NCBI GenBank assembly: GCA_963832345.1
Contig: CAWHTW010000005.1
Span: 148,512 to 212,511 of the forward strand
DNA: 64,000 nt
Direction: 5' to 3'
Origin: an uncultured Flavobacteriaceae bacterium
Lineage (GTDB): Bacteria > Bacteroidota > Bacteroidia > Flavobacteriales > Flavobacteriaceae
Part shown: positions 6,041-44,665 of the stretch, piece after piece
Layout of the letters: each line of letters starts with the position of its first letter
Numbering within the stretch: the first letter of the stretch is position 1
Made by a program: the position numbers and the translations under genes
Notes under the pieces: generated by a model
The model's input: only the letters and a program-made list of their open reading frames with translations
Databases searched by the model: none
Told to the model about the DNA's origin: nothing

Positions 6041-6117
<77 letters not shown>

Positions 6118-18100: not shown

Positions 18101-18349
18101 ATGGAGCCACTACCGGAAGAATTACAGGACAACCAATACTATATCGAATTGTTGGATGCCTTGATCGAGGAGAACGATATGGAATTGAAACACCGCTTGC
18201 AAAAAGCGGATACCTATGGGCAGTTCGTCAATGAACAGGCCGGAATGATAATGGACAGGACCATTGAACATATCCGGGAGAACGAATCATCGTTTTCAAT
18301 AGCCTCATCCATAGTATTAGATGAATGGAAAAAACGCATGTTTTCCTGA
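18101..18349 (+). CDS. Small acidic hypothetical protein upstream of the coupling protein
   Basis: 82-aa ORF. Its end overlaps the start of the T4CP gene. Confidence 0.35.
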   Translation: MEPLPEELQDNQYYIELLDALIEENDMELKHRLQKADTYGQFVNEQAGMIMDRTIEHIRENESSFSIASSIVLDEWKKRMFS

Positions 18350-26131: not shown

Positions 26132-27847
26132 TTAAACAAAATTGCCTTTGAACCTTCCATAATCCGTAAGCTCATCTCGAAACCCGTTGAAAACTTCCAC
26201 TTTATGATAACTGGATTTCCCTAGCAGTGAACTGAACGCGTACACACTTCTTCGCATAAGACGGGCGAGTTTGGCGTTCACTTTATTATTGGCAGCGGCC
26301 ACTATTTTTTCCCGAAGCCCATTTTCCAAGTGAAACTTTAAGATTTCCGGCGCTAGATTTGGCCGTATACCGTCGTTGGCAATCATAAATGCGGCCTTAT
26401 CGTACAACCGCTTTTCAATCAAGTACGAAACCCATAGATTTTTGAGGTGACCTTGCCCTTGCCTTGTGATATCATCGAGTATAGGTCTTTGGCCATTAAG
26501 CAAAGCGTCCAGATCTTTCGAGGTCGATAGGTACATTTCGGTCTTTTGAAGTAGCGGTATTCCTTCGGGGAATTTCGAATAGATGGAGTGCAGGAAGATG
26601 TTTTGGTCCTTCTTAATGAAATAGAATCCCTTATGGTTGAAAAGTCGAATGTAATCCTTGGCCGATTTTTCAAAGGGAGCATGAAGTTTTTCCGCTGTAT
26701 TTTGATACGCCTTCAAACTCAATTTATCAAATTTCCGGCGATTATTATCCGACATGGCCATGTACAGCCTTGGAAAAATTACCGGAAGGAAGATAGCACT
26801 GCCATTAATTCCGGCTTCCTCATGGGATAGGTCATTGACCAATGCATCAAGCACTTTTTCATTCTGGTTGATAAATCCGGTCGAAACATAGGACTGGGCG
26901 GTTTCGGGCACACTAAAATTGGATATGGCCATGGAAACCTGATGCCTGTTCGAATTAAGATAGGCTATATTGCCCCGTACATATTTTACTCCAAGACTTT
27001 GCAAAAGGTCAAAAACGATGGCTTTTTCGGTTTTAACGTCGAATATATCTTGATCGAAAACGTTTTTGATTAAGGGCGCCTTACGATGAAGTACTTCCTT
27101 CTCCTTTTTACTTTCGTCTACATAAATGGCATTTTTGGTATGATCGAATTCCGACTTTACGATAGTCTCCAACGAGTTCCGGTTCTTATGGAGATAGGTG
27201 TTCAAGAAGGCAAAACTTTCGGAAGACCGTACAAATGGCATTAGACCGTTTATGTTGTTGCCCCTAACAAATTCGGACAGCAGACCTTCTTTGTAACCGT
27301 TCAAATAAGCGGTGTAAAAGGCATTTCCGATTAGTTTACGGACTTCCAAAACCATTTGTTTGCCACCGAGGTCCAATTCCGTTTTGATGCCACTATCATC
27401 CCCGACCAAGACCGGATTTGTTCCAAAGCCGATATGGGAACTGATTTCGGAGCTTTGAAAAAGATATCCCGATTTATCGAAAATCGTAAAATTCAATGCC
27501 TTGCCATCTTTATCGAATAGCACTTTGGCTTCGATTTTCTGGTACGCTTTTAAAACCGCTGTAAAGTCTTTCGGGTTGATACGCTTAAAAAGTTGAAGGG
27601 TGGTCAACACTTGTTTTTCCAACCTTTTTCTATGCATAGGCAACAATTTGGACTGTGATTGCTTTTTGAAAATAGCCTGAAGTTTTGGACCGCTCAATCT
27701 TGGGTGGACGGTGTACCCATCGATAAATCGTGATCTGTAGCCGTTGTCGATGGCAACCCCATAGGAGACACCGATACGTCCTTTGCCATTAGTTACGGGT
27801 TTTACGACAACATGATAGGGTGCCACCAACTGGCCAAGCTTCTGCAA
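26132..27847 (-). CDS. C-terminal portion of the MOB relaxase, or a relaxase-associated protein. It overlaps the N-terminal relaxase ORF in a different frame
   Basis: 571-aa ORF that begins inside the last 59 bp of the 211-aa relaxase ORF. No NTP-binding motifs. The same DNA encodes ...FAEAWPVGG* in one frame and MQKLGQLVAPYHVVVKPVTNGK in the other. Confidence 0.5.
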   Translation of the reverse strand: MQKLGQLVAPYHVVVKPVTNGKGRIGVSYGVAIDNGYRSRFIDGYTVHPRLSGPKLQAIFKKQSQSKLLPMHRKRLEKQVLTTLQLFKRINPKDFTAVLKAYQKIEAKVLFDKDGKALNFTIFDKSGYLFQSSEISSHIGFGTNPVLVGDDSGIKTELDLGGKQMVLEVRKLIGNAFYTAYLNGYKEGLLSEFVRGNNINGLMPFVRSSESFAFLNTYLHKNRNSLETIVKSEFDHTKNAIYVDESKKEKEVLHRKAPLIKNVFDQDIFDVKTEKAIVFDLLQSLGVKYVRGNIAYLNSNRHQVSMAISNFSVPETAQSYVSTGFINQNEKVLDALVNDLSHEEAGINGSAIFLPVIFPRLYMAMSDNNRRKFDKLSLKAYQNTAEKLHAPFEKSAKDYIRLFNHKGFYFIKKDQNIFLHSIYSKFPEGIPLLQKTEMYLSTSKDLDALLNGQRPILDDITRQGQGHLKNLWVSYLIEKRLYDKAAFMIANDGIRPNLAPEILKFHLENGLREKIVAAANNKVNAKLARLMRRSVYAFSSLLGKSSYHKVEVFNGFRDELTDYGRFKGNFV

Positions 27848-28424
27848 AACTGCGGACTTTGTATTTTTGAAGGGTGCTATTCAGAATATCCTGGATATAA
27901 AACTTTACCCCGTTCGAGTCGTCCTTTTTGATTTCAGGAAGACGATATAGCGGTAGTTCCTTGTTAAACTTTTTTTCGGGAGATGGCGACAGCCCGAACT
28001 GTTGTTCCAAATAATTTTGGGTTGCACTGTTTCTCCGATAATCATGTGAAAGATCTATCAAGTTTCCATCTTCTTTAACCGTACTGGAAATAATATGAAC
28101 ATGCTGATGTTGGGTGTCGAAGTGACGAACCACTACAAAAGGTTGTTCCCCATAGCCCATGTTTTCCATATAGGCCTTGGACAGTTTGTAGAAATCCGCG
28201 TCGTTCAATCTCTCGCCATGGGGCAGGTTTATTGAAATATGGACATACCGTTTTTGCGATCCATGACGGCTGCCCAGATGATGTAAAATCCTCGTAAATT
28301 GTTCTTTGGTCGTATCCGTTTCGGAATAGGTATTTTGAAATCCGAGCACCCGCATTTTGGCTTTGTCGAACACATATTTAACAACGCCATGGACACTTTC
28401 CCGATACAGAATCCGTGCAATCAT
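27789..28424 (-). CDS. mobB: Conjugative relaxase, N-terminal catalytic domain (3-His MOB_P/MobB-type)
   Basis: Catalytic Tyr region near the N-terminus and motif HFDTQHQHVHIISS (HxDxxHxHxH). The call is only 211 aa. It is translationally coupled to the upstream mobA. Confidence 0.7.
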   Translation of the reverse strand: MIARILYRESVHGVVKYVFDKAKMRVLGFQNTYSETDTTKEQFTRILHHLGSRHGSQKRYVHISINLPHGERLNDADFYKLSKAYMENMGYGEQPFVVVRHFDTQHQHVHIISSTVKEDGNLIDLSHDYRRNSATQNYLEQQFGLSPSPEKKFNKELPLYRLPEIKKDDSNGVKFYIQDILNSTLQKYKVRSFAEAWPVGGTLSCCRKTRN

Positions 28425-28808
28425 CTATCTTGTTTTATCATCCAAAAGCATAAAAATCTTATCTAACAGCTCACTTGATTTTTGCATCTCGAGCTCCAAC
28501 TTTGAATTCGGTCTCCTCAAATTTTTGTAGTTGGCTACCTTGACCAGTTGATTGATATTGGTTCCGATTTTGCTGATCTGATAGGTCAGGTTCGAGATCG
28601 AATCCGAAATCTGTGTTTCCATGACCGCGTCATTCTGTAAAATCAACCTTCGCAAAAATGGTCCCAGCACACCCCTTTTTTTAAAATCAAGATTGTAGGA
28701 TTCCAATAAAATCCTGATGGAATTCATTTCCCCGTCATTAAAACGAAGGTTAACGGTATGCTCCCTTTTAAGTTTCCCCAGTCGCTTTCTTCCCACTTTC
28801 TTTTGCAT
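28425..28808 (-). CDS. mobA: Relaxosome accessory protein (Bacteroides MobA / MobC-family RHH protein)
   Basis: 127-aa basic protein (MQKKVGRKRLGKLKREHTV...). This is the typical first gene of Bacteroidetes mobA-mobB modules. Its stop abuts the relaxase start. Confidence 0.65.
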   Translation of the reverse strand: MQKKVGRKRLGKLKREHTVNLRFNDGEMNSIRILLESYNLDFKKRGVLGPFLRRLILQNDAVMETQISDSISNLTYQISKIGTNINQLVKVANYKNLRRPNSKLELEMQKSSELLDKIFMLLDDKTR

Positions 28809-30358: not shown

Positions 30359-30688
30359 TTGGTTATGGACCAGGAGTACCTACATATCAAAAAGGGACTT
30401 CAGAAAGAAGTACTCTTTATGGGCCTAAAGGCGGTCTATATCAATTACTGTATCTATCTGGGACTTGCCAGCATCGTTATCGGGCTCGGGCTATCGACCC
30501 TCATTCCCACCGCTTTGGCCCTGTTGCTAACGACGCTGTTAATCTTGGCGGTGTTCGGAGTCCTGATGTTCTATTCGAAAACCTACGGGGCAAAAGGCTT
30601 CGTGAAAAAGTTGGCCGATGCCCAGGGACCGAATTCCGTTAAAGTATCCAATCCGTTTAAAACACTGTTATTATGGAAAAACAACTAG
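30359..30688 (+). CDS. traF: TraF-like (VirB3-like, DUF4133-type) small membrane protein
   Basis: Two adjacent TM helices and a short basic tail. It lies immediately upstream of the VirB4-like ATPase and overlaps it. Confidence 0.5.
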   Translation: MVMDQEYLHIKKGLQKEVLFMGLKAVYINYCIYLGLASIVIGLGLSTLIPTALALLLTTLLILAVFGVLMFYSKTYGAKGFVKKLADAQGPNSVKVSNPFKTLLLWKNN

Positions 30689-33234
30689 ACCTTTGCGATG
30701 CCTTCCCCATTTACGGGTACGAACGCCGTTCCTTGATATCGAAGGAAAAAGGCTGCGTGACCATTCCCCTTAAATTGGACCTTCCCGAAGTCTTCACTTT
30801 GGATGTTTCGGAATATGTACAACTGAACGAGTTGTTCTTTAACATCATAGATATCCTCGGAGCGAACACCGTGCTGCACAAGCAAGATCATTTCTTCGGG
30901 GAAACCTATAGACCCCATCGAGCTCGTTTACAGGGCGACTTTTTGGAGCGTGCGAACGAGTTCCATTTCAACGAACGTTCCTTTTTACGTGCCCAACACT
31001 ATCTGTATATCAGTATCGTTCCCAAAAATTATATCCGGTATTCTTCCAAGCGTGCCAACTCCTTCCTGAACAAAAAGCGGGATTTCTATTTGGAAAATAG
31101 CGTTCCGGAAGAATTTGTGAATACCACCGTGCTATCGGATTTTGAAAGCAAGGTCGAGAGCGTCAAGGATCTTATCAACGCTTCCGGACTGATGACGGCT
31201 GAAATAATGGATTATGACAGCCTGTTCTCTGAAAACGGACTGTACGCTATATACTTTGCGCTGTCCCTGGACAACACCGGATTGCCCGACATTGATTTTA
31301 CCAATAGCGCTATTCAGGTAGGAAATAAAAAAGCGCAGTTCTTTAGCGTCGAGAACCTGGACCAGTTTACAAAGGAGCACCTGTCCACCAACGAGGTCTA
31401 TGGGAAGTTTTCCTCCAAATACCACCGATTTCCCGTAGGCAATCTTTTTTCCATCGGTTTCAGGATTCCCCATGAACATATCATCAACCAATACATCTAC
31501 ATCCCCGAACAGGATAAGGTAATGAAACAACTGCGCAAAAAGGCGAAACGTTTTAACCAGTTTTCCAACGAAAAAAAGGACGACAGCAACGCCATCTATG
31601 CCAATCAGATCTATGCCTTTAACAGGGACGTTCTCGAAAACCATAAGGAGATAGTCTTTTACCATCTGAACGTATTGGCTTTTGGGGATAGCCACAAGGA
31701 ACACCGCCATTTGTGCAATTCCGTTTCCGGTGCCTTTAAAAAGTTGAAGATCAATGTCAAGGAAAACTACATCGACCGTAAAAATCTTTTCTTCGGGGGC
31801 GTTCCCGGAAACGCTATCGGGATACCTTCGGATATGTACATGCCCATGTCGAGCGATATGGCCTCCTCCCTGCTCTATTTTGAAGGGGAATATAAGGATG
31901 CCACGGCTTCGGTGGATGGACTGCGCCTGGTGGACCGTACCACCGGAAGACCTTTATCTGTAAGTGTTTACAGGTTGCCGGAAGAAAAGGATTGGATATT
32001 CAACCGGGGCATGTTGGTAGCCTCGGGTTCCGGCGGCGGTAAATCATTTGTCGCCAACCACTATATCGCCTCCGAACTGCGCCAAGGTGCCGAGGCGGTC
32101 ATTATGGAGGATGGCAATTCCTATGATAGGATTACAGAGGTTTTCGGGGGAGTTACTATCGAACACGACGACGAAAATCCGTTTACGTTCAATCCCTTTC
32201 AATTGGACGGCTATGATTTTGTCGTTAATACGGATGGAAAAAAGGTATTGACCGAGGATAAGACCATCAATTTGGTTACCCTGTTGAAACTGATCACCGG
32301 GGACGAAAAAAACCACAGGGCCAGCCAGCTTACCTTGGAGGTCAAAAATACGGTCTTTGAGATCTTGGTCGCTGGCTACTATGAAACCATGTGGGAAGCC
32401 GAAAACGGACGTTTCAATTTCGACGGTTTCTTTGAGTACTGCAAGGAGCATATTCTAGGGTTAATACAGACCAAGGGGATTTCGAGGGAAATATTCGACC
32501 CGAAGGTTTTCCTGTTCCTTTTGGAAAAATATTACAAGGACGGACCCAGGGGGAAACTGCTCAACCACGAGGACGAACGGATAGCCCGATTGAGCGATGA
32601 AAAGATCGTGTACTTCAAATTGGGCAAGCTTATCGACAACGAACTGCTCTTCCCGATCACCGCTTTGATGATCATGGAGATTTTCAGCAAAAAACTGAGC
32701 GACCGTTCCAAACTGTCCATCAATAAGATGATGGTAGTGGACGAGGCTTGGAAGGCATTGGACCGGAAGGAACTGGTGGACTATTTCAACAGCCAATCCC
32801 GAATGGCGCGGAAGTACGGCGGACAGCCCATCTTCATTTCCCAAAAGGTGGACGACTTTATCGCTTCGGAGGTCATCAAGAACGCCATCGTAGTGAATTC
32901 CCATATCAAGGTATTTCTCGATATGCGCGACTTTGCCAAATCCTTCGACAAGATCCAATCCGTTATGGGACTGGGCGAAAAGCAAAAGCAATTGATTCTG
33001 TCCATAAACAAAGACCTGCCCGAGGACAGAAAACTGCGGGAGGTCGCTTTCTGTTGGATGGACCGGGTAAAGGTATACGGCGTTGAAACCTCCTTGGAGG
33101 AGAAATGCATCTACGAGACCAATGCCACCGAAAGCGGCAAGATCATACAACTTTTCAAGAACAATCATAAGAACTGGGAACTCACGGCCAAGGCATATGC
33201 CCACCGGAGTTCCATAAAACCGGAAACGACATGA
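30673..33234 (+). CDS. traG: TraG, the VirB4-family conjugal transfer ATPase
   Basis: 853 aa. Walker A MLVASGSGGGKSFVANHY and Walker B MMVVDEAWKAL. This size and position are typical for Bacteroidetes TraG. Confidence 0.9.
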   Translation: MEKQLDLCDAFPIYGYERRSLISKEKGCVTIPLKLDLPEVFTLDVSEYVQLNELFFNIIDILGANTVLHKQDHFFGETYRPHRARLQGDFLERANEFHFNERSFLRAQHYLYISIVPKNYIRYSSKRANSFLNKKRDFYLENSVPEEFVNTTVLSDFESKVESVKDLINASGLMTAEIMDYDSLFSENGLYAIYFALSLDNTGLPDIDFTNSAIQVGNKKAQFFSVENLDQFTKEHLSTNEVYGKFSSKYHRFPVGNLFSIGFRIPHEHIINQYIYIPEQDKVMKQLRKKAKRFNQFSNEKKDDSNAIYANQIYAFNRDVLENHKEIVFYHLNVLAFGDSHKEHRHLCNSVSGAFKKLKINVKENYIDRKNLFFGGVPGNAIGIPSDMYMPMSSDMASSLLYFEGEYKDATASVDGLRLVDRTTGRPLSVSVYRLPEEKDWIFNRGMLVASGSGGGKSFVANHYIASELRQGAEAVIMEDGNSYDRITEVFGGVTIEHDDENPFTFNPFQLDGYDFVVNTDGKKVLTEDKTINLVTLLKLITGDEKNHRASQLTLEVKNTVFEILVAGYYETMWEAENGRFNFDGFFEYCKEHILGLIQTKGISREIFDPKVFLFLLEKYYKDGPRGKLLNHEDERIARLSDEKIVYFKLGKLIDNELLFPITALMIMEIFSKKLSDRSKLSINKMMVVDEAWKALDRKELVDYFNSQSRMARKYGGQPIFISQKVDDFIASEVIKNAIVVNSHIKVFLDMRDFAKSFDKIQSVMGLGEKQKQLILSINKDLPEDRKLREVAFCWMDRVKVYGVETSLEEKCIYETNATESGKIIQLFKNNHKNWELTAKAYAHRSSIKPETT

Positions 33235-37410: not shown

Positions 37411-37955
37411 TGAGAAAGAGAACAATTTTGTTTTTTGTGGTTTTGACCTGTACGGCATTTTGCTTTTCGCAAAACGCTAACTATGCCTCCTCCGTTGGTC
37501 TTAGCGGAGGCTATGCGGAGGACGGTTTTGGTATCATGGCTACCTACAATTACCATCTTAATCGGAATCGGTATGCTCAGTTGAGCATCTTTGCCGCCGT
37601 GGCCGAGGACAAAGGCTCGTTCGACATTCCTTACAACATCTTTACGGTACAGCCTGGATATTTCATCAAGGTATGGGAACAGAAGAATTTTAAGAAATAT
37701 GCATTGAATCTGGGGGGTGGGGCAATCATCGGTTATGAGGTCATCAACAACGGTAACAGCCTGTTGGAGACGGGGGCTATTATCGATGCCAAAAGCCAGT
37801 TCATATACGGTGGCTATCTGGGCCTGGAGGGCGAACTGACCCTTAGCAACAATTTCTCCCTATTGTTGAAGGCCAACGAATATTACCATATCAACAGCGA
37901 CATAGGAAACTTCTATCCGTATGCGGGCCTGGGTCTGCGCTACTTCCTGTTTTAA
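37407..37955 (+). CDS. TraO-like outer-membrane beta-barrel protein
   Basis: Signal peptide, alternating amphipathic beta-strands, C-terminal ...GLGLRYFLF ending in Phe. 182 aa. It overlaps the TraN stop. Confidence 0.55.
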   Translation: MMRKRTILFFVVLTCTAFCFSQNANYASSVGLSGGYAEDGFGIMATYNYHLNRNRYAQLSIFAAVAEDKGSFDIPYNIFTVQPGYFIKVWEQKNFKKYALNLGGGAIIGYEVINNGNSLLETGAIIDAKSQFIYGGYLGLEGELTLSNNFSLLLKANEYYHINSDIGNFYPYAGLGLRYFLF

Positions 37956-37965
37956 ACCTATCGAA

Positions 37966-39222
37966 ATGAAAAAACTATACACACCGACCAAAGTCGCCAT
38001 GGGCATCCTGGCCTTGATTTCCGTCATTGTCCTAGCATGTAGTAAGGATTTCGAGGACGTAATCCTGGATGATTTCGATTTTAGCTTTTCGGGGGAACAT
38101 CCCGATGAAGGCTATGTATTCGAAAAGGCCAGAACGACGTTCTCGTTGGTACCGGAAAAAGAAATTACTACCGTGGATTATTTCATGCGGTTCTCCTCAG
38201 ACAATGGCAAAGGCTATTTTCTGTCCATGGAAGGCGATACGATCCGTGAAAGGGATACCCTGAACATAACCGATCGGAATTGGGCCTATAACTATGTGGC
38301 CATCGATACCGGTGCGCACAAGATCAGGTTCACGGCCTGGGATTCCCATGCCCGGACAAAGGAACTGGAATTGCTGTACAACGCCAAATACGCCAGTTTC
38401 AGTTTTTTGCTCAACAAAGGGACCGACGAGTTTATCATCAATTCCAATAATCCCGTAAACATTACCCTGTTGCGCGACAAGGAAACCGAAGACCCCAACA
38501 ATAATGGGGATTTCGAGGTCAGCTATCAGATCGACAACGGAACGGGCCAACTCTATTTGGGGAACCAAGTTTTTGATGCCGGAAAACCCTTCGTTTTACA
38601 AAAAGGGATTTCCGAAATGGAATATCTTCCGGAAAATCTGGGTGAGCATAAACTCACCGTTACCGTCAAGGCTCCCGACGGTGCCACCTTGACCAAAGAA
38701 CTGCTCCTTGACGTGCTGAACCTTGATTTTAGCATCAATGCGACGGTGGCATCGACCAAGGTGGAACTGGATACCAATTTGGCGATTGCCATCGACCTTA
38801 ATACGAAGGGCGAACAATCCGACGTCACTTATGAAATCTCGCATGCTTTCGCTTCCAATAGCGAGGGAGGCGGGACGGTCAGGGACCATAACGGCGGGGT
38901 AATGGAACCTGGCCAGTACAGGAATATTGTTCCCGATTCCTACAACTATACCTTTACCAGCACCGAACTGGGAAAACGGAAAATATACTTTGACCTACGC
39001 GATTCTAACGGACAGGTAAAAAGGGACAGCGTCGAGGTCGAGGTGGCCAATATCCCCTTCGTTTTTTCCGGCAATTCAGAAAGCAATTCGGTATTCGAGG
39101 CCGAGCGCCTCACCCACTTAATGCAAGTAAACTTAGCAGAATTGATGGTTGCCTTGCAAGAAAGTGAGGCAAAAGGCCCTCGAAATCTATTCTGGAAAGT
39201 GATCAAACACCAGAAGATGTAA
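37966..39222 (+). CDS. Lipoprotein in the TraQ position, of unknown function. It is the last gene of the tra operon
   Basis: Lipobox ILALISVIVLACSKD. 418 aa. No motif I can assign. The start is set at the internal MKKLYT. Confidence 0.55.
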   Translation: MKKLYTPTKVAMGILALISVIVLACSKDFEDVILDDFDFSFSGEHPDEGYVFEKARTTFSLVPEKEITTVDYFMRFSSDNGKGYFLSMEGDTIRERDTLNITDRNWAYNYVAIDTGAHKIRFTAWDSHARTKELELLYNAKYASFSFLLNKGTDEFIINSNNPVNITLLRDKETEDPNNNGDFEVSYQIDNGTGQLYLGNQVFDAGKPFVLQKGISEMEYLPENLGEHKLTVTVKAPDGATLTKELLLDVLNLDFSINATVASTKVELDTNLAIAIDLNTKGEQSDVTYEISHAFASNSEGGGTVRDHNGGVMEPGQYRNIVPDSYNYTFTSTELGKRKIYFDLRDSNGQVKRDSVEVEVANIPFVFSGNSESNSVFEAERLTHLMQVNLAELMVALQESEAKGPRNLFWKVIKHQKM

Positions 39223-39285
39223 AAGTTACGCTCAGAGCGAGCATGGAAAAAATTATTTAGACCAAAGACTCAAAAAACAATAGAT

Positions 39286-40256
39286 ATGAAAAAGGTAATT
39301 GATAACACTGATAATGATTTTCGCGTTTTTAGGGTGAATGGCTCAAAAATTAATATAGACCCAAATGTAAAAGTTAAAGTCACTCCAGATCTTAAAATGA
39401 CCATGGGGCCTACTTCGAAATAGACTTAGGTGCACATATAGAGCAAGCCATGAACAGTGTTGACGGTATGTTCGGAATGGGTTTTGGGAAATTCAGGGGA
39501 CAGATGGAAAGAAAAGTACCAACAGGACACCGAGGAAATTGAAATTCCGCTAAGCAAGCCCGGCGAAAAAGGGAAACTAGAAATTGAATCGAATAATGGT
39601 AAGGTTAAAGTGTCAGCTTACAATGGCCCTACTGTTAAGGTTAAAATGATTAAGTACAGCAAAAAAGTGGAACGTGAATCAGGTAAAGATGGAATGCGTT
39701 TATTGAGTAGTGGCGGTTTTAATGTGTAAGCGAAGAGTCAACAACATTGTAAAAGTTGAGCCCGATGGCTGGAATAGCCGAGTTGACTTTGAAATTCAGG
39801 TACCTACGAACTTAGCCATGAATGTGGAAACTTATAACAATGGAGCAATTGAAATTGACGGAGTGAATGGAGAGCACAGTATAGAAAGTTACAATGGATC
39901 AATTGCACTCAACAATATCAGCGGTTCTGCCAGTGCAAGCACCTACAATGGTGAGGTTAAGGCTAGCTTTAAAAGTGTTACGGCTAATGCCCCAATGATC
40001 TTTCAGTACCTATAATGGTAATGTAGACTTGACTGTTCCAGCAGGCACTAAGTTTTCAGCAAAAATGAAAACTGGTCGAGACATCTTTACTGACTTCGAA
40101 AATTTTGCGCTGCAAAAGTCAACTCCTAAAAAGAGCAAAGAAGGCAACGGTTATAAGGTAAAGTATGAAGACTGGGTGCAAGGAAAGCTCAATGGCGGTG
40201 GAGCCGAAGTAATGATGGAAACGCGAAATGGCAACATTTACATTCGAAAAGGATAA
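39286..40256 (+). pseudogene. DUF4097-like (putative adhesin / YvlB-like beta-helix repeat) gene, broken by multiple frameshifts
   Basis: My translations show the coding sense hopping between frames about four times across this span. Frame 1 carries MKKVID...MTMGPTSK* (39286-39423) and the 39457 ORF. A frame-2 stretch DLGAHIEQAMNSVDGMFGMGFGKF bridges them. The 39710 ORF is in frame 2 again and the 40029 ORF in frame 0 (...MIFQYL* then STYNGNVDLTVPAGTKF). The repeated NG-x-V/I-x-V units are typical of DUF4097. Confidence 0.6.
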
Positions 40257-40276
40257 GTCAATTATTAGTAATTTTG

Positions 40277-40312
40277 ATCCTGTGAGTGTAAGTTCACAGG
40301 ATTTTTTTATTT
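40277..40312 (+). terminator. Rho-independent terminator
   Basis: ATCCTGTGA-gtgtaagt-TCACAGGAT followed by TTTTTTTATTTTT. Confidence 0.6.
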
Positions 40313-40397
40313 TTACGTACCTCAATAAATCGAAGTACCGTCATATTTCTCTTTTCCGAGAAGAAATATATTTTCACCAAAATAAATTTATGTACTG

Positions 40398-40877
40398 ATG
40401 AAACGTCCTTTAAGAATTTTTTTGATGTCCTTTTTATGTGCCATAAGTCTTGCTATAGGAGCTTATGCCCAAAACGCTACGGCCACTGTTAATCAATTAG
40501 TGAGTAAGTATGGCAGTATTCCCAATTACCGATTGAATATTACTTATGAGGCCAATAATGCCGACATGGGCTTTAACAATATTCAGGAAGGCGTATTGAT
40601 TGTTAAGGGAAATCAATATATCCTTAAATATGGGCCAAACGAAACATGGTTAAATAACGGTGAATACGAATCTGTAGGAACGAAGGAGGAAGATCATTCT
40701 CAAATCATGTATTTCTGCTTGGGCAGAAACACCGAGGCTATAATAGATTACGGTAGCATTTTAAGCTTTTATGGTGCAGGCCATACAGCAACCATGGCTG
40801 GCGATATGATCAGGCTTGTACCAATAAGCGAGCAACCATATACAGAGTTGCACTTAAAGTTGAGGGTGGTGAGCTGA
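40398..40877 (+). CDS. LolA-like outer-membrane lipoprotein carrier/sorting protein. The C-terminal ~48 residues continue in another frame to 41020
   Basis: Signal peptide MKRPLRIFLMSFLCAISLAIGAYAQ and a LolA-like beta-sheet pattern. After the stop at 40877 the adjacent frame reads ...KVEGGELKMIKAVDKLGTEHIYTLSGYSTSIPDTKFTINRWEYAELID. Confidence 0.5.
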   Translation: MKRPLRIFLMSFLCAISLAIGAYAQNATATVNQLVSKYGSIPNYRLNITYEANNADMGFNNIQEGVLIVKGNQYILKYGPNETWLNNGEYESVGTKEEDHSQIMYFCLGRNTEAIIDYGSILSFYGAGHTATMAGDMIRLVPISEQPYTELHLKLRVVS

Positions 40878-41045
40878 AGATGATTAAGGCAGTAGATAAA
40901 TTAGGAACAGAGCATATCTACACCCTTTCTGGCTATAGCACGAGCATTCCTGATACAAAATTCACAATTAACCGTTGGGAATATGCTGAGTTGATTGACG
41001 AGCGCAGCAAATGCAAATAAGGACTGAAGATCTAAAAATGAACTA

Positions 41046-41075
41046 AAAGACCGATTTATTTCGGTCTTTTTTTGT
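41046..41075. terminator. Bidirectional terminator between convergent genes
   Basis: AAAGACCGA-tttatt-TCGGTCTTT flanked by A-run and T-run. Confidence 0.55.
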
Positions 41076-41150
41076 TTACGGCCAGTTCGAAAACATCGTG
41101 GCGTTGATAATGCCCCGTAACATCCAAGTCCAAGTTTCTCCTCATAACAT

Positions 41151-41998
41151 TTACTCAAATCTAACCTCTGCGGTAAAGACACCTTCTACATCCCACTGTG
41201 GCGCTAAGATTGTTTCGCCACTCGGGCCGAAAATACAGCTACCTCCATTTAAAATCATGTGTTCGGGTTTTCCTTCAAACTCTTGGGGAAGTTTAAACTC
41301 AGCAGGAATATCTTTGACTCTCATGATTTGGCCAACACCTACAGCGAAACAACGTCCTTCAAAAGCATATGAACGTGTAGCCACTTGTAGCATTTCATGT
41401 ACTTTAGGCCAAACGGCTACATGAATATGTTCGCCAGAATTGTGCATGGTTTGGCGTGTTAGCGGCATCCAATGTTCCCAACAAATCAATCCACCAATTC
41501 GGCCAAATGGAGTGTCAACCGCCTGTAAGCCAGCACCATCTCCTTGTCCGTAGAGTAACCTTTCCGTATGGGTTGGCATTAGTTTGCGGTGATGATTCGC
41601 CAATTCTCCTTTTTCATTCCAAGTAAGCAAGACTATTGTAAATGGTGCCATTGCCAATACCAGAAGCCAACTTTTTCGTTAATACCCATCACCACTACCA
41701 CGCCCAACTCTTTAGCCCATTTGCCAATTTGTTTTACTTCTGGGCCGTTAACATCTAAGCTGTGCTCATGTGTTCTGGCAAAAACGGTTTTGGTGGCTGG
41801 AAAATCCCATCGAGCATACTCATCACAGTAATCAATCCAGGCAGGATAACCAGTAAACCAAGTTTCTCCAAAAGTGACGAGTTGAGCACCTTTAGCAGCG
41901 GCTTCTCGTAGGAGTGCTTCCACCTTCTGCATTGACTTTCCAACATTCAAGTACTCTGGTGCAGACTGTACAACTCCGATGGTTACTTTCTTATTCAT
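41151..41998 (-). pseudogene. Nitrilase / carbon-nitrogen hydrolase family gene split into two ORFs by a frameshift near 41640
   Basis: The 41633-41998 ORF carries the N-terminal GETWFTGYP Glu motif. The 41151-41657 ORF carries HRKLMPT (Lys) and GGLICWEHWMP (Cys). The two overlap by 25 bp in different frames. Confidence 0.65.
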
Positions 41999-42109
41999 GC
42001 TGCCATATTACATAATTGAAGAGTAAAATGTAAGGGTGGATCATGAGAAAGGAAAAGTTTACTATTAAATTTCAGTCATCGGCGTCATTACGCTAGTAGC
42101 CAATGCTAA

Positions 42110-42342
42110 CAATCTCTCGGCACAGCCGAGCGACTGTAAGGCAGTGGTTATGTTCAGAACAGAAGACGCTCGCTTGCGCGAGTGACCAATAGCTTTTAAA
42201 GCCTTGGTTGGAGCTTAGATCAACTAAATAGTTGGCAAAACCATAGTTAATCACTCGGCACAGCCGAGCGATTGTTCAGGTGGCCATGTTCAGAACAGCA
42301 GTCGCTCGCTTGCAGCGAGTGACCAATAGCTTTTAAAGCTCG
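42110..42342. repeat. REP-like repeat cluster. Two ~90-bp copies plus similar spacers, upstream of the RAYT
   Basis: Each copy contains TCACTCGGCACAGCCGAGCGATTG (palindrome CTCGGC-aca-GCCGAG) and CAGCAGTCGCTCGCTTGCAGCGAGTGAC (a second imperfect palindrome), followed by ...TAGCTTTTAAAGC. Confidence 0.7.
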
Positions 42343-42379
42343 ACTTTATTATATTCAAAGAATTAGTTTAACCAAATCC

Positions 42380-42912
42380 ATGTCAGAGTTAAGAAAAGCC
42401 AATACTGATCTACCCTACTTTATTACACTAACCGTAGTAGATTGGATTGACATATTCACTAGACAGGTTTACTGCGATAAGGTGATCGAGAGCCTAATTT
42501 TTGTGTTGAGAACAAGGGCTTGATCGTTTTTGAGTATGTCATTATGCCGAGTCATATTCATATGATTGCGCAATCTTTAGATGGAAATTTGAATTTCATA
42601 TTGCGTGATTTTAAGAGCTTTACTGCAAAACAAATCATAAAGGAAATAGCAGATAACCACCAATATGAGAGTCGCTCCAAATGGCTTTTGCATATGTTTG
42701 AGTTCAATGCGAAATACTACCGTCAGAATTCAAAATATATGTTTTGGCAAAAAACGAATCACCCCATTGAGCTTAATTCTGCTAATATTCAATATCAGAA
42801 AACGGAATACATTAGAAATAATCCTGTTGAAGCTGGACTGGTGACTGATGGAGAGTTTTGGCAGTATTCAAGTGCAAACCCCAATTCACCACTCAAAACA
42901 AGTAGAATGTAA
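42380..42912 (+). pseudogene. REP-associated tyrosine transposase (RAYT / IS200-like Y1 transposase), frameshifted near 42500
   Basis: The N-terminal frame reads MSELRKANTDLPYFITLTVVDWIDIFTRQVYCDKVIESLIFV...*. The downstream frame reads ...ENKGLIVFEYVIMPSHIHMIA (HuH motif HIHM) and contains a candidate catalytic Tyr. Combined length is about 177 aa, typical for RAYT. Confidence 0.65.
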
Positions 42913-42940
42913 AGTTGGCAAGATGCCAAAATGCTAGTTG

Positions 42941-43190
42941 TCACTCGGCACAACCGAGCGATTGTGGCAGTAGTCATGTTCAGAACAGCAGTCGCTCGCT
43001 TGCAGCGAGTGACGAGTAGCTCTTAAAGGCTTCTTGGGGCTTAGATTACTACATGGTTGGCAAAATGCTAATAACACTATCTTATCACTCGGCACAGCCG
43101 AGCGATTGTGACAGTAATTATGCTCAGAATAGCAGTCGCTCGCTTGCAGCGAGTGACGGGTAGCTCGGCACAGCCGAGCGATTGTTCAGC
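42941..43190. repeat. REP-like repeat cluster. Two full copies and one partial copy, downstream of the RAYT
   Basis: The same two-palindrome unit as at 42110-42342. The inter-copy spacer also resembles the upstream spacer (GGGCTTAGATTACTACATGGTTGGCAAAATGC vs GGAGCTTAGATCAACTAAATAGTTGGCAAAACC). Confidence 0.7.
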
Positions 43191-43193
43191 AAC

Positions 43194-43220
43194 AAAAAAA
43201 GTCAAGCCTTTCGACTTGAC
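43194..43220 (-). terminator. Rho-independent terminator of the flotillin operon
   Basis: On the minus strand: GTCAAG-tcgaaagg-CTTGAC followed by TTTTTTT. Confidence 0.55.
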
Positions 43221-43222
43221 TT

Positions 43223-44665
43223 TTAAAGTTTTAAGTTGATAAGGTTTAGGACTATCCCTCTCCTCTTTCTCTTTACTTCTTCTGCCATTTGCTGGATTTC
43301 CTCAGCAGACTTTCCTTTCAAATAGTCTGGCAATTGCATCCCTGCCATGTTGAACATGTCTTGCAATGGAGGAACTGATTTATAAAGTCCAGAAATAAAG
43401 TTGGCGGTTGAATTTTTACCATCCGTAGTGTTGCCACCTTCCCAAACAGTAACCTTATCAATCTTAATATTCTTAATCGCTTCAGTTTGTAATCTTACCA
43501 ATTCAGGCAATTTATCTGCAATAAGTAGAAGTACAGCATCTCTAGAGTTTTCACCAGCGGCTTTTACAATTTGTTCTAAACCTTGTGCTTGTTTGGTGAG
43601 TACTTCGTAAATACCTTTTGCTTCAGCTTCTTTCATATAAAGAATAGCATCAGCTTCACCCCTAGCTTTTCTTCTAATCATTTCTGCTTCAGCTTCAGCT
43701 GCAATTTCAACACGCTGCTTATCAATTTGAGCAGGGATTACAACATCAGCCGTTTGGCTCGATTTGTCTCTTTCTGCCCTTGCGTTTTCTGCTTGTTGTT
43801 CGGCAGCGTAGGCTTCTTCTAATGCTCTTGCCGACTGTACTTTTTCAGCTGCTGTTGCGATTTTTCTCGCCTCCGCTTCTTTTTCCAAACGAAGGGCATC
43901 TGACTGTGCTACCTTGATCTTCGCTAAGTTTTCACCCTCTACAGCACTTGCTCCAGCAGCTGCTACTTGTGTACGTTGGTCTTGGTGCGCGTTGGCCTGT
44001 CCAATTAAACCATCACGGTCTTTTTCAGCTACGCTTTTAATGGCATCATTAATGGCTTTTGCGGCCGCTTCCTTACCTAATGCCTCAATATAGCCGGACT
44101 CATCCTTGATATCGGTTACGTTTACGTTGATGAGCTTTAGACCAATTTTCTTCAATTCTTGCTCAACATTGGATGCCACATTGGCTAAGAATTTATCTCT
44201 GTTAGAGTTTATTTCTTCGATGTCCATAGTAGCTACTACCAAACGCAACTGACCGAAAATAATGTCTTTCGCTAAGTCATGAATATTTTGCTGAGAAAGG
44301 CCTAAAAGTCTTTCGGCAGCATTGGTCATTACGCCTTCTTCAGTAGAAATACCAACGGTAAACCTTGAAGGCACATCTACACGAATATTTTGTCTACTTA
44401 GTGCATTGGTTAAATTCACCTCAATCGAAATTGGGGTGAGGTCAAGAAAGGCATAATCTTGGATTACTGGCCAAATAAAAGCCGCGCCCCCATGAATACA
44501 TTTGGCCGACCGACCGGTATCGGAGCCTGCATTGTTACCCACTTTGCCGTAAACGACAAGAATTCGATCTGAAGGACAACGCTTGTACCTTCTGAAGATG
44601 CCTATAAGCATCACAAAGATGAAGACGACCGCAACGGCAATAATTATGATAAAAGTTTCGCTCAT
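43223..44665 (-). CDS. Flotillin-like SPFH/band-7 protein (YqiK/FloT-type)
   Basis: N-terminal TM helix, SPFH domain, and a long Ala/Glu-rich coiled-coil (EAEARKIATAAEKV...). 480 aa. Confidence 0.85.
   Translation of the reverse strand: MSETFIIIIAVAVVFIFVMLIGIFRRYKRCPSDRILVVYGKVGNNAGSDTGRSAKCIHGGAAFIWPVIQDYAFLDLTPISIEVNLTNALSRQNIRVDVPSRFTVGISTEEGVMTNAAERLLGLSQQNIHDLAKDIIFGQLRLVVATMDIEEINSNRDKFLANVASNVEQELKKIGLKLINVNVTDIKDESGYIEALGKEAAAKAINDAIKSVAEKDRDGLIGQANAHQDQRTQVAAAGASAVEGENLAKIKVAQSDALRLEKEAEARKIATAAEKVQSARALEEAYAAEQQAENARAERDKSSQTADVVIPAQIDKQRVEIAAEAEAEMIRRKARGEADAILYMKEAEAKGIYEVLTKQAQGLEQIVKAAGENSRDAVLLLIADKLPELVRLQTEAIKNIKIDKVTVWEGGNTTDGKNSTANFISGLYKSVPPLQDMFNMAGMQLPDYLKGKSAEEIQQMAEEVKRKRRGIVLNLINLKL

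What the first reader, a model, noticed from the sequence alone, without database searches (positions are those of the whole stretch)
42110..43190. REP-like palindromic repeat clusters flanking a (frameshifted) REP-associated tyrosine transposase
There are five copies, one partial, of a ~90-bp unit. Each carries two palindromes (CTCGGCACAGCCGAG and GTCGCTCGCTTGCAGCGAGTGAC). Two copies lie upstream and three downstream of a small HuH (HIHM) Y1-transposase gene. The spacers between copies are also related, giving a ~140-bp higher-order unit. This is the architecture of REP/BIME elements with their RAYT. It is rarely annotated in Bacteroidetes. The RAYT itself appears frameshifted near 42500, so the repeats may now be orphaned
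Basis: partly seen in the sequence, partly recalled or inferred. Interest (0 to 1): 0.65.

Follow-up and report, generated by a model that had tools for sequence, protein, structure and literature searches.

The report
Palindromic repeat arrays flanking their transposase
This is a small single-copy "REP-associated" transposase gene of a marine Roseivirga bacterium sitting between arrays of the hairpin-forming DNA repeats it is thought to move. It is a known kind of system in this bacterial phylum, so the finding is correct but largely ordinary.

Summary
The core CTCGGCACAGCCGAGCGAYTG occurs five times, all on the + strand and only at 42.1-43.2 kb (0 expected by chance). The second palindrome occurs four times, one copy degenerate. 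Together they flank a 177-aa HuH/Y1 gene.

Once the frameshift is repaired, the gene passes NCBIfam REP_Tyr_transpos (80.9 against a cutoff of 80). It keeps the HuH, WQ and Y-x3-NP motifs. The model of a 94%-identical orthologue matches E. coli TnpAREP (4ER8) best.

The locus is a REPtron of the Bacteroidetes-specific TnpA_Y1 subclass 2.6, which is RAYT group 5 (Quentin 2018). That paper's supplement already lists near-identical REPs from Flexibacter litoralis.

Details added here:
- The REP arm has two hairpins: a lineage-specific, covarying one, and an invariant one (GTCA-CTCGGC-ACA-GCCGAG-CGACTG).
- The second palindrome is an inverted variant with compensated stem changes, so each unit is a REPIN-like pair.
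- The exact core is found in about 50 Bacteroidota species at only 1-10 copies each, and is mostly extragenic.

The frameshift is a 1-nt deletion at 42495. It belongs to a local cluster of about ten 1-nt indels hitting four adjacent genes, and dN/dS is 0.04. It is therefore either very recent or a sequencing error.

Verdict: new member of a known kind, modest interest.

The parts
42099..42205 (+). Distal upstream REP unit. It holds a remnant of hairpin 1 (about 42099-42109), hp2 at 42112-42136 (ATCT-CTCGGC-ACA-GCCGAG-CGACTG), a ~26-nt spacer, a degenerate hp3 at 42163-42186 (1-nt loop deletion plus substitutions), and an AT-rich tail hairpin AGCTTTTAAAGC.
   Evidence: This unit is absent from the Tara Roseivirga orthologous locus L102, where it shows as a 99-nt insertion in the window.
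42206..42339 (+). Proximal upstream REP unit. It holds a spacer with a degenerate hairpin 1 (TTGGCAAAACCA, 42232-42243), hp2 at 42250-42274, a 24-nt spacer, hp3 at 42299-42323 (CAGTCG-CTCGCT-TGC-AGCGAG-TGAC) and a tail hairpin. hp3 is the left bracket of the core REPtron.
   Evidence: It folds either as two short hairpins or as one long REPIN-like hairpin, z = -3.9.
42380..42912 (+). RAYT / TnpAREP gene (177 aa when repaired), interrupted by loss of one T at 42495. As written it reads as ORF 42380-42523 (47 aa) plus ORF 42520-42912 (130 aa, which carries HuH and Tyr). Motifs are SHIH (residues 58-61), WQ (123-124) and Y144-IRNNP.
   Evidence: frameshift; NF047646 80.9 against a cutoff of 80 after repair; invariant H59, H61, W123, N148, P149; profile hits 4ER8, E = 1.9e-4; AF2 model of the 94%-identical P0001, best fold match 4ER8.
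42915..43029 (+). First downstream REP unit, the best preserved. It holds an intact hairpin 1 (TTGGCA-AGA-TGCCAA, 42915-42929) starting 3 nt after the stop codon, the linker AATGCTAGTT, hp2 at 42940-42964 (GTCA-CTCGGC-ACA-ACCGAG-CGATTG), a spacer, hp3 at 42989-43013 and a tail. hp1 plus hp2 form the right bracket of the core REPtron.
   Evidence: The same hp1-linker-hp2 layout is seen in R. ehrenbergii, R. seohaensis and Roseivirga MAGs and, with different hp1 stems, in other genera.
43030..43157 (+). Second downstream REP unit: a spacer with a degenerate hairpin 1 (43057-43071), hp2 at 43084-43108 and hp3 at 43133-43157.
   Evidence: Part of it is a 77-nt insertion relative to L102, so array length varies between species.
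43160..43190 (+). Partial fifth copy: hp2 only (GTAG-CTCGGC-ACA-GCCGAG-CGATTG, 43160-43184), abutting the preceding hp3.
43197..43224 (-). Intrinsic terminator of the neighbouring flotillin/Band_7 gene (43223-44665, - strand). It is not part of the repeat family but marks the right edge of the REP array.
   Evidence: It is conserved in L082 and L080. The weak Rfam CRISPR-DR53 hit (E = 0.87) is this hairpin.

Best explanation
The locus is a REPtron: a single-copy, vertically inherited REP-associated tyrosine transposase gene together with arrays of its cognate REP doublets. The gene belongs to RAYT / TnpAREP, TnpA_Y1 subclass 2.6, which is RAYT group 5 and is the Bacteroidetes-specific group.

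Shown here:
- The enzyme has the HuH-Y1 fold and motifs of E. coli TnpAREP.
- The repeats are two related palindromes, GTCA-CTCGGC-ACA-GCCGAG-CGAYTG (hp2) and its inverted variant CAGTCG-CTCGCT-TGC-AGCGAG-TGAC (hp3).
- hp2 and hp3 share the same flanks and differ by compensated stem changes, so each unit is an inverted REP pair (REPIN-like).
- hp2 is preceded by a second, lineage-specific hairpin (hp1) and a ~10-nt linker carrying (A/G)TA.
- The gene itself sits inside an hp3 ... hp1-hp2 bracket. The same bracket delimits the 110-150-nt gene-less dispersed copies in other genera.

Inferred by analogy with E. coli TnpAREP and IS608/ISDra2 TnpA:
- On single-stranded DNA, for example the lagging-strand template, the enzyme binds the invariant hp2/hp3 hairpin.
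- It cleaves nearby through a 5'-phosphotyrosine intermediate coordinated by the HuH metal site, then rejoins.
- This excises, copies or re-inserts REP doublets. Together with slippage or unequal exchange between units, it would produce the species-variable tandem arrays at its own flanks.

In this particular sequence the reading frame is broken by a 1-nt deletion. If the deletion is real, the repeats are currently without a resident enzyme.
For: Protein evidence:
- The repaired ORF scores NF047646 REP_Tyr_transpos 80.9 against a cutoff of 80. IS200 NF033573 scores only 21.5 against 55.
- H59, H61, W123, N148 and P149 are invariant and Y144 is nearly invariant across 28 homologues.
- The family profile hits 4ER8 best, E = 1.9e-4, aligning MSExR, HuH, WQ and YIxxNP.
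- The AF2 model of P0001 (94% identical, pLDDT 92.7) has 4ER8 as its top fold hit, E = 1.8e-6, TM 0.63/0.67, followed by ISDra2 and IS608 TnpA.

Repeat evidence:
- Five plus four copies lie only at this locus in the window, with 0 expected by chance.
- Units fold as hairpins with z from -2.8 to -4.5.
- The exact core occurs in 101 loci (116 copies) from about 50 Bacteroidota species. 18 loci have a RAYT homologue (41-93% identity) directly adjacent, and the rest are dispersed.
- 94 of 116 copies lie outside stop-free stretches of at least 120 codons, although 83% of bases lie inside such stretches.
- In 15 of 16 interpretable RAYT-adjacent loci the polarity is hp3-type upstream and hp2 downstream.
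- Dispersed copies are inverted pairs bounded by CAGTCG...CGACTG.
- hp1 is supported by covariation: 5 of 5 pairs have double changes (on a set selected for having a hairpin). Without selection, 39 of 110 unique copies have a hairpin of at least 5 bp with a 3-nt loop at -34..-11. The downstream control zone gives 5 of 110, and shuffles give a mean of 1.9.

Context:
- The synteny nitrilase - RAYT - flotillin - 193-aa gene - DUF6503 is conserved across Roseivirga.
- dN/dS is 0.04-0.05.

Literature:
- Subclass 2.6 is described as ~179 aa, NH[LIV]H / WQ / YIH[QN]NP, Bacteroidetes, and flanked by atypical secondary structures that also occur elsewhere in the genome.
- F. litoralis REPs GCTGTCGCTTGGCTCTGCCGAGTGAC and TCACTCGTTAAAAACGAGCGATAGC are listed in PMC6006769.
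Against: - Copy number is very low for a REP family. There are no copies outside the locus in the remaining 63 kb of the window, and only 2-3 exact-core copies per Roseivirga genome, mostly at the RAYT locus. Mobility in this genus is therefore not demonstrated.
- There is no GTAG directly at the hairpin foot.
- No cleavage site, target site or empty-site comparison was obtained. Strand choice is unresolved: the extended stem has an A.C mismatch on one strand and a G.T wobble on the other.
- The gene is not intact in the sequence given.
- NCBIfam membership is marginal (80.9 against 80), and Pfam Y1_Tnp is below its gathering score (18.7 against 23).
Confidence: 0.88

Rival explanations
1. The frameshift is a sequencing or assembly error. 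The RAYT is intact in the organism and the repeats are not orphaned. On this reading the block 39.7-42.5 kb is simply a low-quality stretch of the assembly.
For: Seven frame-disrupting events (about ten single-base indels, none in long homopolymers) fall in four consecutive genes at 39.7-42.5 kb: the DUF4097 gene has 2 events, the lipoprotein 1, the nitrilase 3 and the RAYT 1. The next 5 kb (43.2-48.5 kb) has only in-frame differences from congeners. All the affected genes are otherwise highly conserved: nitrilase pieces are 94-98% identical in amino acids to congeners, and RAYT dN/dS is 0.04-0.05. All four congeners and the metagenomic orthologues have an uninterrupted 177-aa ORF.
Against: The rest of the window shows long intact ORFs, so errors would have to be strictly local. 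RAYT decay does occur in this genus. R. seohaensis carries HIN instead of HIH in the HuH motif. Roseivirga sp. PB_MBin.40 has lost the gene at the syntenic locus while keeping REP remnants. A block of recently inactivated genes next to a newly inserted conjugative element is conceivable.
Confidence: 0.55
2. The unit hp3 - gene - hp1/hp2 is an autonomous IS200/IS605-type insertion sequence, and the palindromes are its left and right subterminal hairpins. It is not a domesticated RAYT with REPs.
For: The gene is bracketed by the same ends (CAGTCG...CGACTG) that bound the gene-less dispersed elements, as with an IS and its MITE derivatives. The fold is shared with IS608 and ISDra2 TnpA.
Against: - The Tyr motif is Y-x3-NP with WQ (class 2), not Y-x3-Q (PMC6006769).
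- The IS200 NCBIfam model scores 21.5 against a cutoff of 55.
- The gene occupies one syntenic position in all Roseivirga genomes examined, with dS 0.65-1.1 and dN/dS 0.04. That indicates vertical inheritance, not recent transposition.
- The ends are inverted, not direct as in IS608.
- No tnpB is present.
Confidence: 0.04
3. The hairpin arrays are primarily host regulatory structures, such as bidirectional terminators or mRNA-stabilising 3'-UTR hairpins between convergent or divergent genes. The RAYT association would be historical, with no present-day mobilisation.
For: - Copy number is tiny (1-10 per genome), yet the 25-nt core is invariant across genera whose RAYTs are only 41-65% identical. 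That suggests selection on the sequence beyond simple selfish spread.
- Copies are extragenic.
- REP elements in E. coli act as 3'-UTR regulators (abstract of bioRxiv 10.64898/2026.03.23.713779, listed).
- hp1 on the minus strand scores as terminator-like.
Against: - The hairpins lack T-tracts.
- Rfam finds nothing.
- Near-identical multi-hairpin elements at many unrelated sites within one genome imply recent copying (P01_H01_bin.61 and P01_C01_bin.28).
- Tight physical linkage to RAYT in 18 loci is not explained by regulation alone.
- The two readings are not mutually exclusive.
Confidence: 0.12

Closest known systems
TnpA_Y1 subclass 2.6 REPtrons of Bacteroidetes (Quentin et al. 2018, BMC Genomics 19:475, PMC6006769), equal to RAYT group 5 of Bertels et al. 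2017 (PMC5581495)
   Same: - Length is 177 aa against a median of 179.
- The WQ motif and a Y-I-x-x-N-P tyrosine motif are present.
- The host phylum is Bacteroidetes and the gene is low-copy.
- It is flanked by 'atypical' hairpins without GT[AG]G at the foot, copies of which occur elsewhere in the genome.
- Their Table S1 lists Flexibacter litoralis REPs GCTGTCGCTTGGCTCTGCCGAGTGAC and TCACTCGTTAAAAACGAGCGATAGC. These are the hp2/hp3 types found here.
   Different: - The HuH context here is S-H-I-H rather than the consensus N-H-[LIV]H. Both occur among close homologues.
- The tyrosine motif is YIRNNP rather than YIH[QN]NP.
- Assignment to 2.6 rests on motifs, length, taxon and REP similarity. 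It was not checked with a tree that includes their reference sequences.
- I did not find the following in what I read of that paper (text passages and part 6 of 8 of Table S1): the two-hairpin arm (covarying hp1 plus invariant hp2), the compensated hp2/hp3 pair, the tandem ~140-nt arrays, and the breadth of conservation of the 25-nt core.
E. coli K-12 REPtron (TnpAREP/YafM with Y and Z2 REPs; PDB 4ER8; Ton-Hoang 2012, Messing 2012)
   Same: - The enzyme has the HuH-Y1 monomer-type fold and is the best sequence-profile and fold match.
- The gene is single-copy and flanked by several REPs arranged as inverted pairs.
- More than one REP subtype occurs in one REPtron.
   Different: - Only about 15% sequence identity.
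- E. coli REPs carry GTAG at the hairpin foot and number in the hundreds per genome (from the literature read and my own knowledge).
- Here the conserved tetranucleotide-like (A/G)TA(G/T) lies 7-9 nt upstream of the hp2 core, a second hairpin precedes it, and copies number 1-10.
REPINs of Pseudomonas fluorescens SBW25 (Bertels & Rainey 2011, PMC3116915)
   Same: Two inverted REPs separated by a short spacer can fold into one long hairpin. They flank a single-copy RAYT and are dispersed in extragenic space.
   Different: Copy number is orders of magnitude lower. Each arm has two hairpins. The REP core is conserved across families and orders rather than being species- or genus-specific.
IS200/IS605 family (IS608, ISDra2) and their MITE-like derivatives
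   Same: The fold and presumed ssDNA hairpin-guided chemistry are shared. So is the relation between a gene-carrying unit and gene-less units with the same ends.
   Different: The tyrosine motif is Y-x3-NP, not Y-x3-Q. The ends are inverted rather than direct. The gene is single-copy and syntenic, and there is no tnpB. The IS200 HMM scores far below its cutoff.

Membership tests
RAYT / TnpAREP (class 2 TnpA_Y1) | HuH metal-binding motif | tested here: met
   S-H-I-H at residues 58-61. H59 and H61 are invariant in 28 and in 37 homologues.
RAYT / TnpAREP (class 2 TnpA_Y1) | Catalytic Tyr in a Y-x3-N-P context, plus a conserved W(Q/E) | tested here: met
   Y144-IRNNP and W123-Q124. N148, P149 and W123 are invariant and Y144 is conserved in at least 90%. 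These align with DYIYINPV and WQ of 4ER8.
RAYT / TnpAREP (class 2 TnpA_Y1) | HuH-Y1 fold closest to TnpAREP | tested here: met
   AF2 model of orthologue P0001 (94% identical), pLDDT 92.7. The top PDB hit is 4ER8, E = 1.8e-6, TM 0.63/0.67. The window's own interrupted ORF was not modelled.
RAYT / TnpAREP (class 2 TnpA_Y1) | Passes the curated family HMM | tested here: met
   NF047646 scores 80.9 against a cutoff of 80 after restoring the missing T, which is marginal. My first mis-joined translation scored 79.0. Pfam Y1_Tnp scores 18.7, below 23, as reported for class 2 in PMC6006769.
RAYT / TnpAREP (class 2 TnpA_Y1) | Intact open reading frame | tested here: not met
   A 1-nt deletion at 42495 causes a stop at 42521-42523. 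It may be a sequencing error.
RAYT / TnpAREP (class 2 TnpA_Y1) | Single-copy, vertically inherited gene at a conserved chromosomal position | tested here: met
   The same nitrilase - RAYT - flotillin synteny is seen in five Roseivirga genomes or MAGs. dS is 0.65-1.1 and dN/dS is 0.04-0.05. Copy number in the source genome itself cannot be tested from 64 kb.
RAYT / TnpAREP (class 2 TnpA_Y1) | Flanked by palindromic repeats that also occur dispersed, extragenically, in the same genome | tested here: inconclusive
   Flanking is met. Dispersed extragenic copies are met in other genera, with up to 10 exact copies per genome. In the window there are none outside the locus, and congeners have only 0-2 exact-core copies away from the RAYT locus.
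RAYT / TnpAREP (class 2 TnpA_Y1) | Sequence-specific cleavage and rejoining of single-stranded REP DNA | not testable with these tools
   This needs biochemistry with an intact orthologue.
TnpA_Y1 subclass 2.6 / RAYT group 5 | About 179 aa, NH[LIV]H / WQ / YIH[QN]NP, Bacteroidetes host | tested here: met
   177 aa, SHIH (homologues carry either SH or NH), WQ, YIRNNP (homologues mostly YIHxNP). All hosts of the core are Bacteroidota except two chance hits. No tree with the reference set was built.
TnpA_Y1 subclass 2.6 / RAYT group 5 | Atypical flanking hairpins without GT[AG]G at the foot; REP types like those tabulated for the subclass | tested here: met
   The foot is GTCA / CAGTCG. The F. 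litoralis entries of Table S1 differ from rc(hp2) by 2-3 bases.
Canonical REP/BIME (enterobacterial/pseudomonad type) | High copy number (more than 100 per genome) | tested here: not met
   1-10 exact-core copies per genome across about 50 species representatives. This counts exact matches only, so it is a lower bound.
Canonical REP/BIME (enterobacterial/pseudomonad type) | 5' GTAG/GTGG tetranucleotide directly at the hairpin foot | tested here: not met
   A conserved (A/G)TA(G/T) lies 7-9 nt upstream of the CTCGGC stem. The foot itself is GTCA.
REPIN | Two REPs in inverted orientation with a short spacer, able to form one long hairpin | tested here: met
   hp2 and hp3 are inverted variants 24 nt apart. 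The minimum-free-energy fold of units B and C is a single long hairpin. Dispersed inverted pairs of 110-150 nt occur in other genera.
IS200/IS605 insertion sequence | Y-x3-Q motif, IS200 HMM, multiple near-identical copies, direct LE/RE hairpins | tested here: not met
   The motif is Y-x3-NP. NF033573 scores 21.5 against 55. The gene occupies a single syntenic position. The ends are inverted.

The most novel reading that the evidence does not exclude
This RAYT subclade and its bipartite REP (covarying hp1 plus an invariant 25-nt hp2, GTCACTCGGCACAGCCGAGCGACTG) form an ancient, essentially frozen partnership. It appears to have been maintained across Cytophagales and Flavobacteriales at only 1-10 copies per genome, with the enzyme under strong purifying selection (dN/dS 0.04). 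That combination is hard to reconcile with a selfish replicating REPIN population. It would point to a domesticated host function of the RAYT-hairpin pair, such as site-specific ssDNA processing at a handful of chromosomal sites, with independent losses now under way in Roseivirga (a frameshift, HuH changed to HuN, and a gene deletion).
Probability: 0.2. Interest if true: 0.55.

Novelty: new member of a known kind. Interest (0 to 1): 0.3.

Why it matters
The finding adds a clean, well-resolved example of the least-studied RAYT group (subclass 2.6 / group 5). That group's REPs were described only as 'atypical secondary structures found by manual inspection'. The anatomy worked out here gives concrete substrates for biochemistry: a two-hairpin arm, a compensated hp2/hp3 pair, and the gene lying inside the same bracket as the gene-less copies. 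It also gives a search pattern for annotating these elements in Bacteroidota. The combination of very low copy number, deep conservation of the core and strong constraint on the enzyme bears on whether RAYTs are maintained for a host function. For genome annotation, the practical points are that the two ORFs are one RAYT gene and that the 39.7-42.5 kb stretch deserves a quality check.

Tried and rejected
- Rfam scan of 41.9-43.4 kb at E up to 1. The only hit was a chance CRISPR-DR53 match on the flotillin terminator, so no known RNA family is present.
- Exact-protein look-up of the window's flotillin to find the source contig. Nothing is on record, so the source genome could not be retrieved and its genome-wide REP count could not be made.
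- Single-sequence phmmer against PDB. There was no significant RAYT hit. The family profile was needed.
- Unbiased metagenome sample of 80 RAYT-family loci at 38-91% identity. Only L107 (91%) and L108 (55%, loop variant CAGGAG) carry the core. The core is therefore specific to a subclade, not to all subclass-2.6-like genes.
- A look-alike palindrome at 21804 (CTCTCGGCACTGCCGAGAGA). It lies inside a 329-aa ORF and lacks the GTCA/CGACTG flanks, so it was rejected as a REP copy.
- The two gammaproteobacterial hits, L046 (Povalibacter) and L059 (Salinisphaera). They lack the GTCA flank, and L046 also lies inside a long stop-free stretch. About 1.1 chance matches are expected in 596 Gb by my calculation, so they were rejected as chance.
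- Programmed frameshifting. Rejected because all orthologues have one continuous ORF.
- Full-text literature search for the core sequence. No paper was found.
- Using wobble asymmetry (A.C against G.T at stem position 4) to decide the active strand. This is uninformative because the two ends are inverted copies.
Full report
**1.

- Reading 41.7-43.7 kb and the repeat finder show an 88-nt family at 42251, 42941 and 43085. Shorter families tie in a fourth unit at about 42102-42202 and a partial fifth at 43150-43185.
- The 21-nt core CTCGGCACAGCCGAGCGATTG occurs five times with at most 1 mismatch, all on the + strand and all between 42116 and 43184. It occurs nowhere else in the 64 kb, and 0 copies are expected from shuffles.
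- The second palindrome is exact at 42299, 42989 and 43133 and degenerate at 42163-42186.
- Start-to-start spacings of 138 and 144 nt, with related spacers (D2-D4, D9), confirm the ~140-nt higher-order unit.
- Two units lie upstream and two and a half downstream of a small gene that reads as two ORFs, 42380-42523 and 42520-42912.

**2. The gene is a RAYT**

- Alignment with three congeners shows that the window lacks one T of GAGAGCCTTAA, at position 42495.
- With that base restored the 177-aa product scores 80.9 on NCBIfam NF047646 'REP-associated tyrosine transposase' (cutoff 80). It scores only 21.5 on the IS200 model (cutoff 55).
- Homologues are abundant: 429 hits, typically 176-177 aa, many named RayT by their sources. 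The best is 94% identical, from an uncultured Roseivirga.
- Across 28 homologues, H59 and H61 (HuH), W123, N148 and P149 are invariant. Y144 is nearly invariant (Y-I-x-x-N-P).
- A profile of the family hits E. coli TnpAREP (4ER8) best, aligning the MSExR N-terminus, HuH, WQ and YIxxNP.
- An AlphaFold model of the 94%-identical orthologue (pLDDT 92.7) has 4ER8 as its top fold match (E = 1.8e-6). ISDra2, IS200 and IS608 TnpA follow.

**3. Anatomy of the repeats**

- The first palindrome with its flanks is GTCA-CTCGGC-ACA-GCCGAG-CGAYTG (hp2).
- The second is CAGTCG-CTCGCT-TGC-AGCGAG-TGAC (hp3).
- The reverse complement of hp3 has the same flanks as hp2. Its stem differs by two compensated positions (GC/GC becomes CT/AG).
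- Each ~90-nt unit is therefore an inverted REP pair. It can fold as two short hairpins or as one long REPIN-like hairpin, with z from -2.8 to -4.5.
- Upstream of hp2 there is a third element, hp1 (TTGGCA-AGA-TGCCAA). It is intact only at 42915-42929, 3 nt after the stop codon, and degenerate in the other units. These degenerate remnants are what make the spacers look related.

**4. Evidence from other genomes**

- A scan of 185,579 species-representative genomes for the exact core found 101 loci with 116 copies.
- All are Bacteroidota: Hymenobacter, Roseivirga, Cyclobacteriaceae, Cytophagaceae, Fulvivirga, Ohtaekwangia, Amoebophilus, Vicingaceae, Schleiferiaceae, Fluviicola and other Flavobacteriales.
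- The exceptions are two gammaproteobacterial singletons that lack the GTCA flank. About one chance match is expected in 596 Gb by my calculation.
- Eighteen loci have a RAYT homologue (41-93% identical) directly beside the core. The rest are dispersed copies.
- 94 of 116 copies lie outside stop-free stretches of at least 120 codons, which cover 83% of the bases. The family is therefore extragenic.
- Copies per genome range from 1 to 10 (hand count). This is far below classical REPs.
- Context alignment shows the general arm:
  - a hairpin with a 5-8-bp stem and a 3-nt A-rich loop, whose stem sequence differs between lineages (GCAGC, TTGTT, CTACC, GAGCC, TTGGCA, CTTAGC, CCGGGTT and others);
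  - a ~10-nt linker with a conserved (A/G)TA;
  - then the invariant GTCA-hp2-CGACTG.
- On a set chosen for having the hairpin, all five hp1 pairs show double compensatory changes.
- Without selection, 39 of 110 unique copies have a hairpin of at least 5 bp with a 3-nt loop in the -34..-11 zone. The downstream control zone gives 5 of 110, and shuffles give a mean of 1.9.
- Longer context shows that dispersed copies in Hymenobacter, Vicingaceae and two Bacteroidota MAGs are 110-150-nt inverted pairs bounded by CAGTCG...CGACTG.
- RAYT genes sit inside the same bracket, with an hp3-type hairpin upstream and hp1-hp2 downstream. This holds in 15 of 16 interpretable loci.
- In the window the core REPtron is therefore hp3 (42299-42323) - gene - hp1 (42915-42929) - hp2 (42940-42964), with extra units on both sides.
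- Array length differs between species: 1+1 units in R. ehrenbergii, 1+2 in a Tara MAG, about 5+2 in R. seohaensis, and 2+2.5 here.

**5. Specificity of the core**

An unbiased sample of 80 metagenomic RAYT-family loci, mostly 38-55% identical, contained the core only in the 91% and one 55% relative. The core therefore belongs to a subclade, as expected if each RAYT lineage has its own REP.

**6. Comparison with what is known**

- Quentin et al. 2018 (PMC6006769) define TnpA_Y1 subclass 2.6, which equals RAYT group 5 of Bertels et al.
- Their description is a median of 179 aa, NH[LIV]H / WQ / YIH[QN]NP, and mostly Bacteroidetes hosts. [quoted passage not shown]
- Their Table S1 lists, for Flexibacter litoralis, GCTGTCGCTTGGCTCTGCCGAGTGAC and TCACTCGTTAAAAACGAGCGATAGC. 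These are the hp2 and hp3 types seen here.
- Bertels et al. 2017 report about 31 occurrences of flanking 16-mers for group 5.
- The locus is thus a new member of a described kind. I found no paper containing the exact core.

**7. The frameshift**

- It is real in the sequence as given, but it is not isolated.
- Against the syntenic Tara Roseivirga locus and three congeners, the window carries seven frame-breaking events (about ten single-base indels, none in long homopolymers) in four adjacent genes between 39.7 and 42.5 kb:
  - the DUF4097 gene has 2 events;
  - the lipoprotein gene has 1;
  - the nitrilase gene has 3;
  - the RAYT gene has 1.
- The following 5 kb has only in-frame differences.
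- The affected genes are otherwise highly conserved. RAYT dN/dS against congeners is 0.04-0.05 at dS 0.65-1.1.
- The events are therefore either very recent or, somewhat more likely, a local sequence-quality problem.
- RAYT decay does happen in the genus. R. seohaensis has HIN in place of HIH. Roseivirga sp. PB_MBin.40 lacks the gene at the syntenic locus but keeps REP remnants.
- Whether the repeats here are 'orphaned' cannot be decided from the sequence.

**8. Mechanism**

- Shown: the fold, the catalytic motifs, the hairpin architecture, the physical linkage, and the extragenic dispersal in related genomes.
- Inferred from E. coli TnpAREP and IS608/ISDra2:
  - binding of the invariant hairpin on single-stranded DNA;
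  - HuH/Tyr-mediated cleavage near the hairpin and rejoining;
  - copying or excision of REP doublets as a result.
- Array expansion at the gene's flanks would come from this activity or from slippage.
- Not established: the cleavage site, the active strand, the target site, and any activity in Roseivirga.

**9. Verdict**

The system is already described at the family level, so novelty is limited to anatomical detail and to the breadth of core conservation. Interest is 0.3.

Noticed in passing
window 39286-42523: Four consecutive genes each carry one to three frame-breaking single-base indels relative to Roseivirga orthologues. They are the DUF4097-like gene (39286-40253), a lipoprotein gene (40398-41017), the CN_hydrolase/nitrilase gene (41059-41998, - strand) and the RAYT gene. 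There are seven frame-breaking events (about ten single-base indels), none in long homopolymers. Genes from 43.2 to 48.5 kb are intact. This is either a low-quality patch of the assembly or a block of recent pseudogenes next to the conjugative element.
   Followed up: partly
window ~18300-39222 (possibly from ~6.1 kb): A Bacteroidetes-type conjugative transposon. Its genes are a T4 coupling protein (18321-20885), a C5 DNA methylase (22618-23949), a relaxase and MobC (26132-28808), DUF4134/DUF4133 pilin-like genes, TraG (30673-33234), a TrbL-like gene, TraM, DUF4138/TraN and a TraQ-like gene (37921-39222). In congeners a HEAT_2 gene occupies the position just left of the DUF4097 gene. Only its last 48 codons are recognisable in the window (39114-39257), which suggests the element's right junction lies there. 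A tRNA-Arg lies at 6041-6117, and low-GC segments lie at 6-12 kb and 22-26 kb.
   Followed up: partly
L080:2371-2904 (Roseivirga seohaensis SW-152): The orthologous RAYT has H-I-N instead of H-I-H in the HuH motif (CATATTAATATG). The second metal-binding histidine is lost in an otherwise intact 177-aa ORF. The same locus has the longest REP array, about five units upstream.
   Followed up: partly
L082:1180-1890 (Roseivirga sp. PB_MBin.40): The syntenic nitrilase-flotillin interval lacks the RAYT gene. It keeps one hp1-hp2 unit with a truncated hp3 and a degenerate second unit, and it has an unrelated ~60-codon ORF in place of the RAYT. This is a natural example of REP remnants without their enzyme.
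   Followed up: partly
window 43223-44665 (- strand): The flotillin/Band_7 gene is 480 aa here, as in R. ehrenbergii (97.7% identical). It is 521 aa in the Tara and other Roseivirga MAGs. The difference includes an in-frame 132-nt gap at about 43949.
   Followed up: no
window 8349-11516: A 1055-aa protein with a C-terminal CHAT (caspase-like) domain lies in a low-GC (32-36%) segment. It is preceded by two ORFs with no Pfam match (6395-8337, - strand), next to tRNA-Arg. It may be a defence or island cargo.
   Followed up: no
L092 / L093 (Bacteroidota MAGs P01_H01_bin.61 and P01_C01_bin.10): One hp2 copy is preceded by a ~60-nt tandem repeat (…CCAACTTTACAAACTGGGAGAGCA(A/G)G…) instead of hp1. The flanks in the two MAGs are identical over the 50 nt upstream and 90 nt downstream shown.
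   Followed up: no
A3 / A4 alignments of the RAYT subclade: Besides the catalytic motifs, the N-terminal M-S-E-x-R-K and an E-S-R-x-x-W motif (residues 97-102) are invariant. The second motif lies in the region that PMC6006769 describes as a subclass-specific insertion possibly involved in recognising the unusual REPs.
   Followed up: no
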